Of a stretch of DNA of 64,000 nt, positions 59,582 to 62,518 are shown in pieces. The first letter of the stretch is position 1. Each line of letters starts with the position of its first letter. A program made the translations under genes and the position numbers. The stretch lies in IMG/VR virus record IMGVR_UViG_2778261631_000002. The stretch is one strand, 5' to 3'. The DNA is from a virus (Duplodnaviria; Heunggongvirae; Uroviricota; Caudoviricetes). Below the pieces are notes generated by a model that was not told where the DNA came from, did no database searches, and saw nothing but the letters and a program-made list of their open reading frames with translations.

Positions 59582-60046
59582 ACTTGCCGGGTACGTCTCC
59601 GGCGAGGGCTTCCACCTCCGTATGCTTTTCGGCGCACCGCGCCCTGGCTGCAATTCGGTAACAGGGGATGCACAACCCTGGCTTCCAGCGTGATTAGCGC
59701 CTTCAGCATGACGGGATATACCCGTAAATTCGTGGAACTGTACCCAAAGTGCTGTTAAGCACCGCTGTTACGCTGAAAAGAAAACGCAACAGGAAAGGAC
59801 GCTGACCAACAGATGGCCCCTTCTCGTTCATCTGGTTAATCACACCAGCGCCCTTACCTGTTGTGCCTCCCCGTTCCCTAATACACAGACGGGGACACTC
59901 TGCGGTCGATTTTTTGACGGGGGACGACTCATACCCCGTGGCATCTGGCTTCTTAGGCCGCTACCATCATCAGATCATCGTTTGCATTTACTTTAATGGT
60001 CAGTTTCTAAACCGCCGCAAAGTCGCTAACCATGACGAAAACCCTG

Positions 60047-60072
60047 AAAAAAACGCCCACCCGAAGATGGGC
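60047..60072 (-). terminator. rho-independent terminator downstream of dmt
   Basis: Minus strand: GCCCA-TCTTCGGG-TGGGC followed by GTTTTTTT. Confidence 0.6.
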
Positions 60073-60246
60073 AAACTGGAAGCTCGTAACGCACTTCGGC
60101 GTTGCCACTTAGGCGCATGGTCAACCTGGCAACTCGGTGGTTTGTCTGGGAGGACTAGGCCCAGCCATGCTTACCGCCGCGCCTGTCGCGGCTAACAGCT
60201 AAATCGCTCTATAAATCACGATTCATTGAGGCGATATTACACTAAT

Positions 60247-60263
60247 AAATTTATTAGAGCAAT
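60247..60263. promoter_or_regulatory. perfect C1 operator overlapping the dmt stop codon
   Basis: AAATTTATTAGAGCAAT, exact reverse complement of ATTGCTCTAATAAATTT. Confidence 0.75.
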
Positions 60264-62518
60264 ATACCCAAAACGTCATGAGCTACACCTCGAGTGTCCC
60301 CCTTACAAGACACAGAACGTCTGGCAAAAAGAGGTTCCACTCTGAAGCCACTGTCATGATAAAGCTCTCTGATGTTTGGCGCGCCACTGTTAGTAATGAG
60401 AACCTTTGCACCTCGACGATGAGCATCCGTCAACAGAGACACCAGGCGTTTTTGCTCTTCAAACTTAAAGTCATGACCGGAATAGTTCGTGAATCCCTCT
60501 GTATTTGGAAGCGGTTCATACGGCGGATCGCAAAAGATGACATCTCCTTCTCCGGCAGCTTCAATCACCGCTGCAAAATCACCGCATACAAACTCAGACC
60601 GCCCTTCCGCACCGAGGAAGGCTTCCATCTCCTGTAATGGGAAATACGGAGTTTTATACTTCCCATAACCGACATTGAACTCACCGGCCTGGTTGTAACG
60701 CGTCAATCCGTTAAAACAATGTCGGTTCAGGAACAAAAACGCCGCTGCGCGATGTAAATCATCATAGACTTGTTTGTTAAACGCATTCCGTACTGCCAGG
60801 TATCCTTCCTGTGTGTTGTAGTCCTGGAAGAAACGATGTGCCAGAGTGATAAGTGAATGCGCCTCGCGTTGCAGAGTCTTGTAAAAGTTAATCAGGTCAG
60901 CATTCACATCATTTAGCAGATTTTCCTGGTATCCGGCATTCATGAAGACAGCTCCGCCACCAACGAAAGGTTCAATCAGGCGCTTCCCTTCTGGCAAATA
61001 GCGAAAGATTTGTTCCAGAACACCAAATTTTCCACCAGCCCATTTGAATATGGACCGTTCGAATTCTGCCGCTGGTTTAACTTTTCGCTCTTTTGTTTCA
61101 CTTCCTTCTTTCTGCCGACATACGGCCTTAGTAATCCGATCGCCAATCCAGCGCATTACTGGTATTGCCATACTATTGCCGATCGCTTTGTAACGCGGTC
61201 CGTCAGCTGCAAGCATCGCGGCCTCTTCTTCGCTTAAATCTGGATAGTGATTGCGAAGATATGCCAGTTCATCTGAATTAACTTTTTTACGCTTTTCCGT
61301 CGGGATCAACGTATGCCCATCAGGAAAACCTTGCAGCCTTTCACATTCGACAGGGGTAAGACGGCGGACAGCTACTTCTGCGTTTCTTACTTCATAGCAA
61401 ACAGCTGTTGGATTTTTAGCCATTAGAGATGGTGAAGTATTCTTAGTTGCAGCATGTTGTGTACCGCTCATACGCTCAGGAAAAGCCAATGTAACAAGAT
61501 GCTCATGGCTTTCTTGCTCACGTGCCCGCAATGTACCATGCCCTTCTGACCAAAAACCTGCTCCTGTGCTGCTAAAAACGGCAAGGTCAGTGGCATCTTT
61601 AAAATCTCTTGCCTTTACTGTCGATGCGGTTTCATCGTCAATATATTCCCCAAATGCCGCCATCCTGAAACCGTTTACGGCTTTCGTCGATTTCATACCG
61701 GGAGACATGCCAGCGTGTAGGCATGGATTTAGGCTTTCGCCACTGATTGCAGCGCCATTTGCAGTAATGGCGGAAGCGATTTCCTTCTTTTTTCGGCTCG
61801 GCGCAATATTCCGGCGCACGCCTTCGAACTCAAAAAGTACCGTTGCGGGATCGAGGTCTGTTCGAGCACTTGCGACAACAAACACGCGTCGGCGTCGTTG
61901 TGCCACTCCGAAGTATTGGGCATCAAGGATTCTCCAGGCCACCTTTCGCTGCGGTCCATAAATACAACCACACTGCGGCCACTTTGGAACATGGCAACCG
62001 GTTTTGCCATCCCACCGCCAGAACGCGTTGCTTTTTCCTGATTCAGGTCGATCACCTGGTTCAAATGGCACATCTTCTCCAGCCAATCCGGCAAGGAAAC
62101 ATCCGAAGGCGTTATCTGCGGATGACAAGACTCCTGGGACATTTTCCCAGACGATAACGGCTGGTTTGAGAAATGACTCAGCCCGTTTGTCGTCAATTGC
62201 ATTTGCAAGCTCCACATACTTTAAAGTTAGCGCGCCACGCTCATCATCAAGCCCACCACGTAAGCCCGCGATACTGAATGCCTGACAAGGTGTTCCCCCG
62301 ACGAGCACATCAGGGGATTCGATTTCCCCAGCCAGGACTTTTTTGGCAAGTTTTGTCATGTCGCCAAGGTTGGCGACATGGGGCCAGCGGTGCGCAAGAA
62401 CGGCAGATGGAAAAGACTCGATTTCAGCAAACCACACCGGACGCATACCCAACGGTTCCCAGGCAATACTCGCGGCTTCAATTCCACTGCAAACAGATCC
62501 ATAGCACAGCTCTTTCAC
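60254..62518 (-). CDS. dmt: bifunctional DNA methyltransferase (N-terminal C5-cytosine MTase-like, C-terminal N6-adenine Dam-like)
   Basis: 754-aa protein with GGTPCQAFS and ENV motifs in the N-terminal half and FCDPPYEP in the C-terminal half. Confidence 0.9.

What the first reader, a model, noticed from the sequence alone, without database searches (positions are those of the whole stretch)
60040..60270. Perfect C1 operator overlapping the dmt stop, followed by a terminator before the tRNA cluster
The only perfect-consensus C1 operator in the window (60247-60263) overlaps the dmt stop codon and is itself part of the palindrome TAATAAATTTATTA. About 180 bp downstream on the same strand is a strong terminator (60047-60072), and only then tRNA-Asn. 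Either a short C1-controlled RNA is made here, or the operator controls readthrough into the tRNA-tci-ban operon.
Basis: partly seen in the sequence, partly recalled or inferred. Interest (0 to 1): 0.4.

Follow-up and report, generated by a model that had tools for sequence, protein, structure and literature searches.

The report
P1 ban operator plus tmRNA-like RNA
The flagged site is the already described C1-repressed promoter and operator of the phage P1 ban operon, followed by a leader RNA and a terminator; the surprise lies just past that terminator, where an unannotated, widely conserved phage RNA copies the tag-coding part of the host's ribosome-rescue RNA (tmRNA) and carries an arm complementary to it.

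Summary
A perfect C1 operator lies at 60263-60247 (-) and overlaps the dmt stop codon (60256-60254). An intrinsic terminator lies at 60072-60047 (-), followed by tRNA-Asn and tRNA-Thr. All of this is known. The window is 99.6-99.7% identical to phage P1. The P1 record annotates this site as the bivalent operator Op72a/b (Oban), which overlaps promoter P1ban and "controls expression of ban", and it marks a "dicF-like region" that ends at the terminator.

The leader (about 60227-60047) has three hairpins homologous to the Qin prophage sequence just upstream of DicF. It is not a DicF family member.

New: directly after the terminator lies a 177-nt element (60044-59868 -). It carries a tmRNA-type resume codon and a 10-codon tag ORF (ANDDLMMVAA*), then two covariation-supported pseudoknots. 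It has no tRNA-like domain. Its 5' arm is complementary to E. coli tmRNA nt 68-105. Relatives occur in lambdoid, N4-like, Vi01-like and T1-like phages.

I propose that this RNA targets host tmRNA. That is inference only.

The parts
60247..60263 (-). C1 operator half-site Op72a (Oban-a), perfect consensus ATTGCTCTAATAAATTT. It overlaps the dmt stop codon TAA (60256-60254) and the -35 of P1ban.
   Evidence: 0 mismatches, the only perfect copy in the window. (dmt ORF 60254..62518). (AF234172 protein_bind 68667-68683, 'monovalent C1-controlled operator Obana ... former Op72a').
60236..60252 (+). C1 operator half-site Op72b (Oban-b), ATTACACTAATAAATTT, 2 mismatches. It overlaps Op72a by 6 bp and covers the -10 of P1ban.
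   Evidence: (AF234172 68678-68694, 'Obanb; component of bivalent operator Obanab'). (inverted repeat I2, 60234-60250 / 60249-60265).
60234..60262 (-). Promoter P1ban: -35 TTGCTC (60262-60257), 17-nt spacer, -10 TAATAT (60239-60234). The inferred start is near 60227.
   Evidence: (sigma-70 promoter P1ban, 68668-68696 in AF234172), mapped by window = 128930 - record coordinate. Sequence read. The generic consensus scan does not call it because the -35 matches only 3 of 6. The start site is my inference.
60101..60192 (-). Leader RNA module with three hairpins: H1 60192-60176 (GCCGCG/CGCGGC), H2 60164-60146 (CUGGG/CCCAG), H3 60133-60101 (GUUGCCA/UGGCAAC). It is homologous to the Qin prophage sequence immediately 5' of dicF.
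   Evidence: window 60097-60191 matches about 4000 E. coli chromosomes at 76-79% identity. (the match lies 24 nt upstream of DicF in Qin). (compensatory changes CUGGG/CCCAG to CGGGG/CCCCG and GUUGCCA/UGGCAAC to GUUGUCA/UGACAAC). (P1, P7 and other variants).
60047..60072 (-). Intrinsic terminator: stem GCCCAUC-UUCG-GGUGGGC (60072-60055), G, then U7 (60053-60047). It ends the roughly 180-nt leader RNA and directly abuts the tmRNA-related element.
   Evidence: (-12.8 kcal/mol; the same hairpin directly precedes the element in phage D6, which lacks the P1 leader and operator). (U-run of 6-8 among P1-like contigs).
60007..60044 (-). 5' arm of the tmRNA-related element (GGGUUUUCGUCAUGGUUAGCGACUUUGCGGCGGUUUAG). 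It is complementary to E. coli tmRNA nt 68-105, that is the PK1 3' part, the linker, the resume codon and codons 1-6.
   Evidence: the model of the phage element hits the minus strand of ssrA. (the reverse complement of the arm against ssrA scores 27, against shuffles of 14.7 +/- 2.1, 0 of 1000; against its own downstream part it scores 15, chance level). (the paired columns are invariant or change only to wobble-compatible bases).
59953..60006 (-). Invariant AAACUGACCA, a 12-nt A-rich linker with U-A at -5/-4, the resume codon GCA (59985-59983), and a 10-codon tag ORF GCA AAC GAT GAT CTG ATG ATG GTA GCG GCC TAA = ANDDLMMVAA* (59985-59953).
   Evidence: sub-threshold tmRNA_permuted and beta_tmRNA matches aligned on the tag. 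(ARAGORN at a relaxed threshold reads the same tag). (always 10 codons; wobble-only variation in the Ala codons, in Val and Leu codons, and GCA AAC versus GCT AAT).
59868..59939 (-). Two H-type pseudoknots after the tag. PK-A: S1 59939-59934 / 59922-59917, S2 59928-59925 / 59908-59905. PK-B: S1 59904-59899 / 59889-59884, S2 59895-59890 / 59873-59868.
   Evidence: RNAalifold; double-sided changes. (the variants of each helix across 57 distinct sequences). (91.7% of cells paired against 78.3% shuffled; 16 of 23 pairs with changes on both sides; 0 of 500 shuffles reach the observed values; slid controls 30-49%).
59428..59581 (-). tRNA-Asn (59581-59506) and tRNA-Thr (59503-59428), the next genes on the Pban transcript.

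Best explanation
The flagged site is the bivalent C1 operator Op72a/b (Oban) of a P1-type phage. It overlaps promoter P1ban, and both are placed over the last codons and the stop codon of dmt.

In a lysogen, C1 occupies the two overlapping half-sites, which cover the -35 and -10, and shuts the promoter. From established P1 biology, it does so together with Bof. When C1 is inactivated, transcription starts near 60227 (inferred).

The first 180 nt form a conserved three-hairpin leader that ends in a strong intrinsic terminator. Part of the transcripts should therefore stop there and give a short C1-controlled RNA. This RNA is the positional counterpart of the DicF precursor of prophage Qin, but without a DicF sequence.

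The remaining transcripts read through. They carry, in order: a 177-nt tmRNA-derived RNA, tRNA-Asn, tRNA-Thr, a series of long-helix modules, tciABC, the tRNA annotated as tRNA-Ile (CAT anticodon), and ban.

Shown: sequence identity with the annotated P1 features, the anatomy of the terminator, and the conservation and covariation of the leader and of the downstream element. Inferred: the start site, partial termination, and the function of either RNA.
For: The window is 99.6-99.7% identical to P1 over 59300-60700.

The P7 record annotates the same operators as regulating the tRNA genes and downstream genes.

There is one perfect half-site and one with 2 mismatches, against 0.37 matches expected by chance in the whole window. 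The dmt stop lies inside the operator. The terminator is found and has an energy of -12.8 kcal/mol.

The leader is homologous to the Qin sequence 5' of DicF, with compensatory stem changes.

No promoter-like site was found between the terminator and the tRNAs, and the record annotates no other promoter for ban. ban expression therefore requires read-through.
Against: No transcript mapping was available. The library holds none of the classical Op72/ban papers, and the P1 RNA-seq papers do not address this leader.

The single-sequence fold of the leader is not significantly more stable than shuffles (z = -1.7), and its minimum-energy structure differs from the comparative hairpins.

The terminator hairpin is conserved as a unit with the downstream element in phage D6, which lacks the operator and the leader. 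It may therefore belong functionally to that element rather than to the leader.

A strong terminator 180 nt downstream of the only known ban promoter is hard to reconcile with ban expression unless termination is leaky or is suppressed by an unknown factor.
Confidence: 0.8

Rival explanations
1. The hairpin and U-run at 60072-60047 are primarily the 5' boundary of the downstream tmRNA-related RNA rather than an attenuator of Pban. They would serve as a protective or processing hairpin, or as the insulating terminator that travels with that module. The leader upstream is then a separate, accidentally juxtaposed module.
For: Phage D6 has the identical hairpin directly in front of the element but an unrelated upstream sequence, and no C1-operator-like site within the locus. 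In lambdoid prophages the element also lies downstream of a strong terminator, tR'-like, between Q and the holin gene. The leader module occurs alone in Qin, followed there by DicF.
Against: This is not exclusive with attenuation: any RNA polymerase coming from Pban still meets a canonical intrinsic terminator. In Qin, the homologous leader is likewise followed at the same distance by a terminator-ended sRNA (DicF). That argues that 'leader plus terminated 3' hairpin' is itself a unit.
Confidence: 0.3
2. The short leader RNA is a functional DicF-type regulator. On this view it inhibits ftsZ translation or other DicF targets, and this is the main purpose of the C1-controlled promoter.
For: The P1 record calls 68791-68892 (window about 60139-60038) a 'dicF-like region'. 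The leader is homologous to the sequence that precedes DicF in Qin. The tci genes downstream are annotated as possible cell-division inhibitors.
Against: The Rfam DicF model scores 76.7 bits on Qin but gives no match on the window, even at E <= 10. The homology with Qin stops where DicF begins. The P1 3' part (GCUUCCAGUUUGCCCAUCUUCGGGUGGGCGU7) lacks the DicF internal stem-loop. Pairing with ftsZ was not tested.
Confidence: 0.1
3. The tmRNA-like sequence behind the terminator is a decaying relic. It would be a fragment of a captured ssrA gene with an inverted partial duplication, and would have no function.
For: It lacks a tRNA-like domain. ARAGORN finds no tmRNA at its default threshold, and T-loop motifs sit at inconsistent distances or are absent. 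The Rfam tmRNA scores are below the gathering threshold (24 against 47 bits). One P1-like contig (L026) carries a disrupted copy.
Against: A single covariance model recovers it at 126-209 bits in very different phage families. Four helices keep pairing through changes on both sides. The ORF is always 10 codons, with wobble-position variation. The arm keeps complementarity to the host tmRNA while the element's own tag has diverged. A relic would not show this.
Confidence: 0.08
4. The operator at the end of dmt acts mainly on dmt. Bound C1 would be a roadblock or 3'-end determinant for transcripts coming from Pdmt (Op68), rather than a promoter operator.
For: The operator overlaps the dmt stop codon. 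dmt is itself in a C1-controlled operon that starts at Op68/Pdmt.
Against: The half-sites coincide with the -35 and -10 hexamers of the annotated promoter P1ban, the classical repressor geometry. dmt transcription is already shut off by C1 at Op68 in the same conditions, so a roadblock would add nothing.
Confidence: 0.04

Closest known systems
Op72a/b (Oban) and P1ban of bacteriophage P1 (AF234172 / NC_005856; also annotated in P7, AF503408)
   Same: Same sequence, same position at the dmt stop codon, same bivalent overlapping half-sites, and the same downstream gene order: tRNA-Asn, tRNA-Thr, tciABC, the tRNA annotated as tRNA-Ile, ban.
   Different: Nothing of substance. The window is a P1 variant that is 99.6-99.7% identical here.
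DicF RNA and its roughly 190-nt precursor in the dicB operon of prophage Qin (Rfam RF00039; processing described by Faubladier, Cam and Bouche 1990, cited from memory)
   Same: The three-hairpin leader (60192-60101) is 77-79% identical to the Qin sequence that ends 24 nt before DicF, with compensatory stem changes. In both, a short terminator-ended RNA follows, and further genes lie behind the terminator.
   Different: The DicF sequence itself is absent from P1: no Rfam match. The P1 3' hairpin is a plain UUCG-loop terminator. The promoter context also differs (a C1 operator against DicA control).
tmRNA (ssrA; Rfam RF00023, RF01850, RF04321)
   Same: The element 60044-59868 shares several features with tmRNA: the resume codon GCA preceded by U-A at -5/-4, a 10-codon tag of the form AND...(V/M/A)AA* comparable to the host's ANDENYALAA*, the stop codon followed by pseudoknots, and weak Rfam tmRNA matches aligned on the tag.
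   Different: There is no acceptor stem, no T-arm and no CCA, so it cannot be charged on its own. It has only two pseudoknots. It also has a 5' arm that is antisense to the host tmRNA, which no tmRNA has.
Phage-encoded tmRNAs and fragments: mycobacteriophage Bxz1 group, Bacillus phage G, the two-piece tmRNA of a marine methylophage, and the tRNA-like-domain-only form of mycobacteriophage DS6A (PMC4131195, PMC11915505, PMC9004378)
   Same: These are phage genes derived from tmRNA. DS6A shows that a partial tmRNA can be kept by a phage, and a similar molecule inhibits host tmRNA (PMC4131195).
   Different: Those are complete tmRNAs or the tRNA-like half only. The P1-type element is the opposite half, the mRNA-like domain with pseudoknots, plus an antisense arm. 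It does not appear in those surveys, which list only complete genes.
Leader of the lambdoid late operon: PR', the short terminated transcript, tR', then Q-dependent read-through into accessory genes and tRNAs
   Same: A promoter is followed by a short terminated RNA. Behind the terminator lie tRNA genes and the same tmRNA-related element (lambdoid prophage loci).
   Different: P1 has no known Q-like antiterminator for this operon. Control is by repressor C1 at the promoter.

Membership tests
P1 C1-repressor operator (Op72a/b = Oban) | 17-bp asymmetric consensus ATTGCTCTAATAAATTT | tested here: met
   0 mismatches at 60263-60247 (-), and 2 mismatches at 60236-60252 (+). 15 sites with up to 3 mismatches against 0.37 expected.
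P1 C1-repressor operator (Op72a/b = Oban) | Overlap with the hexamers of a sigma-70 promoter, so that bound repressor excludes RNA polymerase | tested here: met
   -35 TTGCTC (60262-60257) lies inside Op72a and -10 TAATAT (60239-60234) inside Op72b, by mapping the AF234172 features onto the sequence.
P1 C1-repressor operator (Op72a/b = Oban) | Binding of C1 (with Bof) and repression of ban | not testable with these tools
   Stated in the GenBank annotation and in the classical literature, which is not held in the library.
Intrinsic (rho-independent) terminator | G+C-rich hairpin directly followed by a U-run | tested here: met
   7-8 bp stem with 5 G-C pairs, a UUCG loop and 7 U. -12.8 kcal/mol.
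Intrinsic (rho-independent) terminator | Measured termination of transcripts in vitro or in vivo | not testable with these tools
   No transcript data found.
DicF RNA (RF00039) | Match to the DicF covariance model (52 nt, two nested stems and terminator) | tested here: not met
   Qin scores 76.7 bits. The window gives no DicF match at E <= 1 over 4.5 kb, or at E <= 10 over 731 nt.
DicF RNA (RF00039) | Complementarity to the ftsZ translation-initiation region | not tested
   The ftsZ leader was not fetched.
tmRNA | tRNA-like domain: acceptor stem with G3-U70, T-arm, 3' CCA | tested here: not met
   ARAGORN at its default threshold finds no tmRNA. At an 80% threshold it proposes an unconvincing domain with Watson-Crick pairs only and an aberrant T-loop, and the same setting gives obvious false positives elsewhere. 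T-loop motifs are absent or at variable distances in relatives. The conserved core ends right after the second pseudoknot.
tmRNA | Resume codon with upstream frame-setting nucleotides (U85 and A86 in E. coli), and a short tag ORF ending in hydrophobic-Ala-Ala-stop | tested here: met
   UA at -5/-4 in all but 2 of the 103 elements; those 2 have CA. In two scans, 103 and about 50 elements carry 10-codon ORFs of the form AN[DE]xxxx[AVM][AV]A*. Synonymous variation is seen in the Ala, Val, Leu and Asn codons. The element's tag aligns to the host's tag.
tmRNA | Pseudoknots flanking the tag | tested here: met
   Two H-type pseudoknots 3' of the tag are supported by covariation. A PK1 equivalent 5' of the tag could not be established.
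tmRNA | Rfam gathering score | tested here: not met
   tmRNA_permuted 24.1 bits (gathering score 47) and beta_tmRNA 14.1 bits (gathering score 84). Relatives score 21-33 bits.
trans-acting antisense RNA against host tmRNA (proposed, no described family) | Extended complementarity to the target, beyond chance and specific for the target rather than for the element itself | tested here: met
   The reverse complement of the arm aligns colinearly to E. coli tmRNA nt 68-106. Scores are 20-36, against shuffles of 14.7 +/- 2.2. None of 1000 shuffles reach the score for 5 of 10 representatives, P1 included, and 1-27 of 1000 do for the others. Against the element's own downstream part the scores are 12-16, chance level. 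30 base pairs are possible for P1 (read from the sequence). Substitutions at columns opposite G90, U88, G87 and U68 are all wobble-compatible. Arm variants of different architecture all keep the complement of UAGUCGCAA.
trans-acting antisense RNA against host tmRNA (proposed, no described family) | Physical pairing in vivo and an effect on trans-translation | not testable with these tools
   This needs RIL-seq or CLASH, tag mass spectrometry, and reporter assays.

The most novel reading that the evidence does not exclude
The 177-nt RNA directly behind the terminator (60044-59868, minus strand) belongs to an undescribed family of phage RNAs that take over the host's trans-translation system.

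Its 5' arm would pair with about 30-35 nt of host tmRNA: the PK1 3' strand, the linker, the resume codon and codons 1-6. That would bury the host's own tag template. The RNA would present in its place its own look-alike module: CUGACC, a 12-nt linker with U-A at -5/-4, GCA, a 10-codon tag and two pseudoknots, at the same spacing as in tmRNA.

Stalled ribosomes rescued by the host's tRNA-like domain and SmpB would then add a phage-specified tag (ANDDLMMVAA in P1) instead of ANDENYALAA. At the least, the arm would act as an antisense inhibitor of tagging.

The element's own tag codons and its -3..-1 nucleotides have diverged exactly where the arm pairs best, which would make it immune to its own arm.

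In P1 the RNA is under C1 control through Pban. In lambdoid prophages it sits behind tR'. In virulent phages it has its own promoter. It would therefore be a lytic-phase function.
Probability: 0.3. Interest if true: 0.9.

Novelty: already known. Interest (0 to 1): 0.3.

Why it matters
The flagged operator, promoter, 'dicF-like' leader and terminator are textbook P1 biology, so confirming them adds little. What would be useful is to measure how much transcription passes the terminator. Nobody appears to have explained how ban, the tRNAs and tci are expressed from a promoter that is followed 180 nt later by a strong terminator.

The neighbouring element matters more. If the tmRNA-derived RNA really pairs with host tmRNA, it would be the first example of a phage RNA that targets or reprograms ribosome rescue. 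It would also explain a conserved non-coding block next to tRNA genes in many unrelated enterobacterial phages, including therapeutic and Shiga-toxin phages. It is directly testable with P1, the easiest of these phages to handle, because the RNA is switched on by inactivating C1.

Tried and rejected
1. DicF membership: rejected. No Rfam match on the window, while Qin DicF scores 76.7 bits.

2. The leader as an HK022 put-like antiterminator RNA: no sequence similarity to the HK022 early or late regions. Structure-only similarity was not tested.

3. The leader as the acceptor piece of a permuted tmRNA. ARAGORN at an 80% threshold suggested this. It is rejected for three reasons. Neither the leader nor Qin piece A shows similarity or complementarity to E. 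coli ssrA above shuffles. The putative CCA is not conserved in P7 or Qin. The relaxed ARAGORN setting produces false positives inside protein genes.

4. A tRNA-like domain 3' of the element: T-loop motifs are inconsistent, and the region 59865-59582 is not significantly similar to ssrA (15 of 500 shuffles reach its score).

5. Translation of the +1 frame ORF (AUG CAA ACG ...): its length varies, and the AUG is absent in Serratia phage 3M.

6. RNAduplex energies as a test of arm-tmRNA pairing: poorly discriminating (z from -1.6 to -5.3), because long unconstrained duplexes score well even for shuffles. Replaced by colinear alignment statistics.

The distribution in bacterial chromosomes outside E. 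coli is therefore unknown.

8. Literature: the classical Op72/ban papers and the P1 genome paper are not held. No paper describing an mRNA-like-domain-only tmRNA fragment or an anti-tmRNA RNA in phages was found. The library lacks most subscription journals, so prior description cannot be excluded.

9. A PK1-like fold in the 5' arm: no model was consistent across subtypes.
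Full report
**1. Identity of the window and of the flagged site**

The stretch 59300-60700 is 99.6-99.7% identical to phage P1 and close relatives such as RCS47 and P1 isolates. It is 96% identical to P7 and SJ46.

In the annotated P1 genome (AF234172), the homologous positions carry these features:
- the end of dmt;
- the [quoted passage not shown], made of Obana and Obanb;
- the "sigma 70 promoter P1ban", plus a predicted P2ban;
- a "dicF-like region";
- then tRNA-Asn, tRNA-Thr, plp and upl (opposite strand), tciA, tciB, tciC, tRNA-Ile, ban and dbn.

The P7 record annotates the same two operators as regulating the tRNA genes and what follows. 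The finding is therefore a rediscovery of a described regulatory site.

**2. Check of the observation**

- The perfect consensus ATTGCTCTAATAAATTT lies at 60263->60247 (-). It is the only perfect copy in the window. There are 15 sites with up to 3 mismatches, against 0.37 expected.
- A second half-site, ATTACACTAATAAATTT (2 mismatches), lies at 60236-60252 (+) and overlaps the first by 6 bp.
- dmt (60254..62518, minus strand) stops with TAA at 60256-60254, inside Op72a.
- Mapping the P1 features (window = 128930 minus record coordinate) gives P1ban -35 TTGCTC at 60262-60257 and -10 TAATAT at 60239-60234, with a 17-nt spacer. I infer a start near 60227.
- The terminator is canonical: GCCCAUC-UUCG-GGUGGGC at 60072-60055, then G and U7 at 60053-60047, with -12.8 kcal/mol.
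- tRNA-Asn and tRNA-Thr follow at 59581-59428.

**3. The leader**

Between the inferred start and the terminator lies a module that blastn finds in about 4000 E. coli chromosomes at 76-79% identity (window 60097-60191).

In K-12 derivatives the match is in prophage Qin, between ydfC and dicB. It ends 24 nt upstream of the DicF gene, which Rfam locates at L003 1622-1673 with 76.7 bits.

The P1/Qin alignment shows three hairpins. Two of them keep pairing through changes on both sides: CUGGG/CCCAG against CGGGG/CCCCG, and GUUGCCA/UGGCAAC against GUUGUCA/UGACAAC. P7-type contigs carry a third loop variant.

The homology ends where DicF starts. The P1 3' segment is only a terminator hairpin, and the DicF model finds nothing in the window. 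So "dicF-like" in the P1 record describes the precursor-like context, not a DicF gene.

Other results on the leader:
- The single-sequence fold is not exceptional (z = -1.7).
- I found no similarity to HK022, whose put RNAs let polymerase ignore terminators.
- I found no similarity or complementarity to tmRNA.

**4. How the locus most likely works**

C1 bound to the two overlapping half-sites covers both promoter hexamers. This is the known repression of ban (annotation; classical papers not available).

After derepression, the transcript meets a strong intrinsic terminator after about 180 nt. No other promoter is annotated or detectable between it and ban. Some read-through must therefore occur. 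The simplest model is an attenuator that yields both a short RNA and a longer operon transcript.

One observation complicates the model. Phage D6 shares with P1 exactly the terminator hairpin and everything downstream of it, yet has a different upstream sequence and no C1-operator-like site. The hairpin may therefore belong to the downstream module.

**5. What lies behind the terminator**

A permissive Rfam scan gave weak matches to tmRNA_permuted (24.1 bits, E 0.0075) and beta_tmRNA at 59915-60083 (-). Both were aligned on ...AAAUGCAAACGAUGAUCUGAUGAUGGUAGCGGCCUAA. Read from GCA, this is ANDDLMMVAA*, closely resembling the enterobacterial tag ANDENYALAA*. ARAGORN finds no tmRNA at its default threshold, and reads the same tag only when its threshold is lowered to 80%.

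The stretch 59931-60043 has blastn relatives in about 300 phage records of very different kinds:
- lambdoid prophages, between the Q antiterminator and the holin gene;
- N4-like phages such as PD205;
- Vi01-like and other Ackermannviridae;
- T1-like and Skatevirus siphoviruses;
- a Vibrio phage.

It always lies in unannotated DNA near tRNA genes. All four tested relatives also give sub-threshold tmRNA matches.

**6. The family**

A pattern scan of IMG/VR returned 120 loci. 103 of them carry a 10-codon ORF of the form AND[DEN]xx[LM][MAIV][AV]A*. They fall into 37 clusters at 88% identity.

A second scan, anchored on the 3' pseudoknot only, added further tags: ANEEMYLAVA, ANEEVYLAVA, ANDSEVLMAA, ANDSEMRVAA, ANDNYALAAA, ANDTEFKAAA, ANEERFLMAA and AKDDQFLAVA. 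All are again exactly 10 codons.

Codon variation is of the coding kind. GCA, GCC, GCG and GCT all occur at the Ala positions; GTT, GTA and GTC at Val; CTG and TTG at Leu; and GCA AAC alternates with GCT AAT at codons 1-2. The other two frames keep neither length nor content. U-A at -5/-4, the positions of U85 and A86 in E. coli tmRNA, is present in all but 2 of the 103 elements, which have C-A.

The conserved core is about 175 nt. A covariance model built from 34 representatives finds exactly one copy in the window (59850-60053, 145 bits). It finds the relatives at 126-209 bits, and nothing in Qin or HK022.

**7. Structure**

RNAalifold and a per-sequence search define two H-type pseudoknots after the stop codon. 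Each of the four helices occurs in several Watson-Crick variants:

| Helix | Variants |
|---|---|
| PK-A S1 | GUGAGG/CCUCAU, ACGGGG/CCCCGU, GCAAGG/CCUUGU, GUCAGG/CCUGAU |
| PK-A S2 | CCGA/UCGG, GUCG/CGAC, CCAG/CUGG, CCAA/UUGG |
| PK-B S1 | CGCACU/GGUGUG, CGCAGA/UCUGUG, CGCAUU/GAUGUG, CAUGGA/UCCGUG, CGUGGU/ACCAUG |
| PK-B S2 | GCCC/GGGC, UCCCCG/CGGGGA, UCCCUGA/UCAGGGA, AUCC/GGAU |

On the model-based alignment of 61 distinct sequences:
- 91.7% of cells pair, against 78.3% after shuffling;
- 16 of 23 pairs show changes on both sides;
- no shuffle in 500 reaches any observed measure;
- slid controls pair at 30-49%.

Helix 3 is under-counted because P1-type rows sit in another register.

No tRNA-like domain is part of the conserved unit:
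- The core starts right after a consensus promoter in Skatevirus-type phages, after a terminator in P1 and D6, or after a helix strand in lambdoid prophages.
- It ends after the second pseudoknot.
- T-loop motifs nearby are absent or at varying distances.

**8. The unexpected arm**

I searched the E. coli ssrA locus with the phage model. The best match was on the opposite strand of ssrA.

The conserved 5' arm has the consensus AUAGUUUUCGUC-aCGUUaGCGAC-UUUGCGG-nUUUUUAG. In P1 it is GGGUUUUCGUCAUGGUUAGCGACUUUGCGGCGGUUUAG, at 60044-60007. It is the reverse complement of tmRNA ...UAAAAAGCCGCAAAAAAUAGUCGCAAACGACGAAAACUA..., nt 68-106. That stretch runs from the 3' part of PK1 through the linker and the resume codon G90 to codon 6.

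Colinear alignment of the reversed arm to ssrA scores 20-36, against 14.7 +/- 2.2 for shuffles. None of 1000 shuffles reach the score for P1, L022, L023, L009 and L046. Between 1 and 27 of 1000 do so for the shorter arm types. The same arm against the element's own linker, tag and pseudoknots scores 12-16, which is chance level.

Reading the P1 sequence gives 30 possible pairs: 10 + 3 + 5 + 7 + 1 + 4.

Across 31 distinct arms:
- The columns opposite tmRNA 97-104, 87-91, 75-81 and 68-71 are invariant or nearly so.
- The few substitutions opposite G90, U88, G87 and U68 are all wobble-compatible (C to U, or A to G).
- The unpaired columns vary in sequence and length.

Arms of different architecture found in the second scan still contain the complement of UAGUCGCAA.

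The element's own -3..-1 (AAU against the host's GUC) and its codons 4-8 differ from the host exactly where the arm pairs best. The invariant CUGACC is followed by a 12-13 nt linker before GCA. This matches the spacing of the PK1 3' strand (GCCGC), an 11-nt linker and GCA in tmRNA (read).

**9. Interpretation of the element**

Shown:
- It is a conserved, structured, oriented RNA element with a tmRNA-type tag module.
- It lacks a tRNA-like domain.
- It carries an arm complementary to host tmRNA.

Inferred:
- It pairs with host tmRNA during lytic growth.
- It either blocks the host tag template (antisense inhibition, possibly with RNase III cleavage) or substitutes its own template, giving phage-specified tags.

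The conserved, synonymous-variation-bearing ORF and the matched spacing favour substitution. The absence of any precedent, and the need for the ribosome to accept a template tethered only by a duplex, argue for caution.

I put the specific tag-swap or anti-tmRNA reading at about 0.3. I put a functional tmRNA-related RNA of some kind at about 0.85. The relic hypothesis is disfavoured by the covariation and by the breadth of conservation.

Surveys of tmRNA genes list only complete phage tmRNAs and the tRNA-like-domain-only DS6A form (PMC4131195, PMC11915505). Full-text searches found no description of such an RNA. The library is incomplete.

**10. Verdict**

The flagged feature is real and correctly located, but already known: Op72a/b with P1ban and the annotated dicF-like leader. 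Its interest on its own is low.

The valuable result of the follow-up lies immediately outside the flagged coordinates and shares the terminator with them. It is an unannotated tmRNA-derived RNA with an anti-tmRNA arm, placed under C1 control in P1.

Noticed in passing
window 59868-60044 (-), directly downstream of the flagged terminator: An unannotated 177-nt RNA element. It has a 5' arm complementary to host tmRNA nt 68-105, a tmRNA-type resume codon and 10-codon tag (ANDDLMMVAA*), and two covarying pseudoknots, but no tRNA-like domain. Relatives occur in lambdoid, N4-like, Vi01-like, T1-like and Vibrio phages, always next to tRNA genes.
   Followed up: yes
window 58645-59865 (-): A series of at least five modules, each closed by a long helix with nearly the same sequence (CACAACAGGTAAGGG ... 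CCCTTACCGTTGTG; exact copies at 59851-59865, 59412-59426 and 59197-59211). They overlap the ORFs annotated as plp and upl on the opposite strand. The same helix sequence flanks the tmRNA-related element in many unrelated phages. They may be processing sites or tRNA-derived modules. The protein-coding status of plp and upl deserves a second look.
   Followed up: partly
window 59335-59426 (-): The module after tRNA-Thr encloses a degenerate tRNA-like core: an anticodon-arm-like hairpin GCGACGUCGGAGAUCGC (loop GUCGGAG) and a canonical T-loop (AGGGUUCGAAUCCCU). It has no acceptor ends. ARAGORN does not call it. The same core recurs in lambdoid prophage loci (L015, L071).
   Followed up: partly
window 58534-58653 (-): A sub-threshold Rfam match to the Salmonella sRNA family STnc100 (38 bits, gathering score 47, E 1.7e-6 in a 1-kb search). 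It overlaps the start of the annotated tciA. A similar sequence (GGUGAAUGCGGCUGAGCG...) follows DicF in Qin.
   Followed up: no
window, 15 sites listed (for example 30566-30582 / 30649-30665, 46502-46518 / 46551-46567, 44410-44426, 63769-63785, 11398-11414): Further C1-operator-like sites with 1-3 mismatches, far above the chance expectation (0.37). Several occur as nearby pairs. They presumably correspond to the other known P1 operators and were not examined.
   Followed up: no
L253 (phage D6, MF356679.1 6098-9837): D6 shares with P1 the terminator hairpin, the tmRNA-related element and the tRNAs at 94% identity. It replaces the operator and leader with unrelated sequence that contains another terminator-like hairpin, and has no C1-operator-like site. 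This shows the modular boundary lies at the terminator.
   Followed up: partly
L026 (IMG/VR contig, P1-like): A natural variant in which the tmRNA-related element is split and partly deleted: the arm is at 971-1084, and the tag with a truncated pseudoknot is at 2347-2429. The element is therefore not indispensable in every P1-like genome, or this contig is defective.
   Followed up: no
L005 1011-1082 (N4-like phage PD205) and L007 about 1000-1075 (Vi01): A homologous degenerate tRNA-like gene (GGUCGGGG/GGUCGGGU...UUCGAAUCC) lies about 165-235 nt upstream of the element in two unrelated virulent phages. It is annotated as a pseudo-tRNA in PD205 and is called tRNA-Ala(cgc) by ARAGORN, without a G3-U70 pair. 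Whether it cooperates with the element is unknown.
   Followed up: partly
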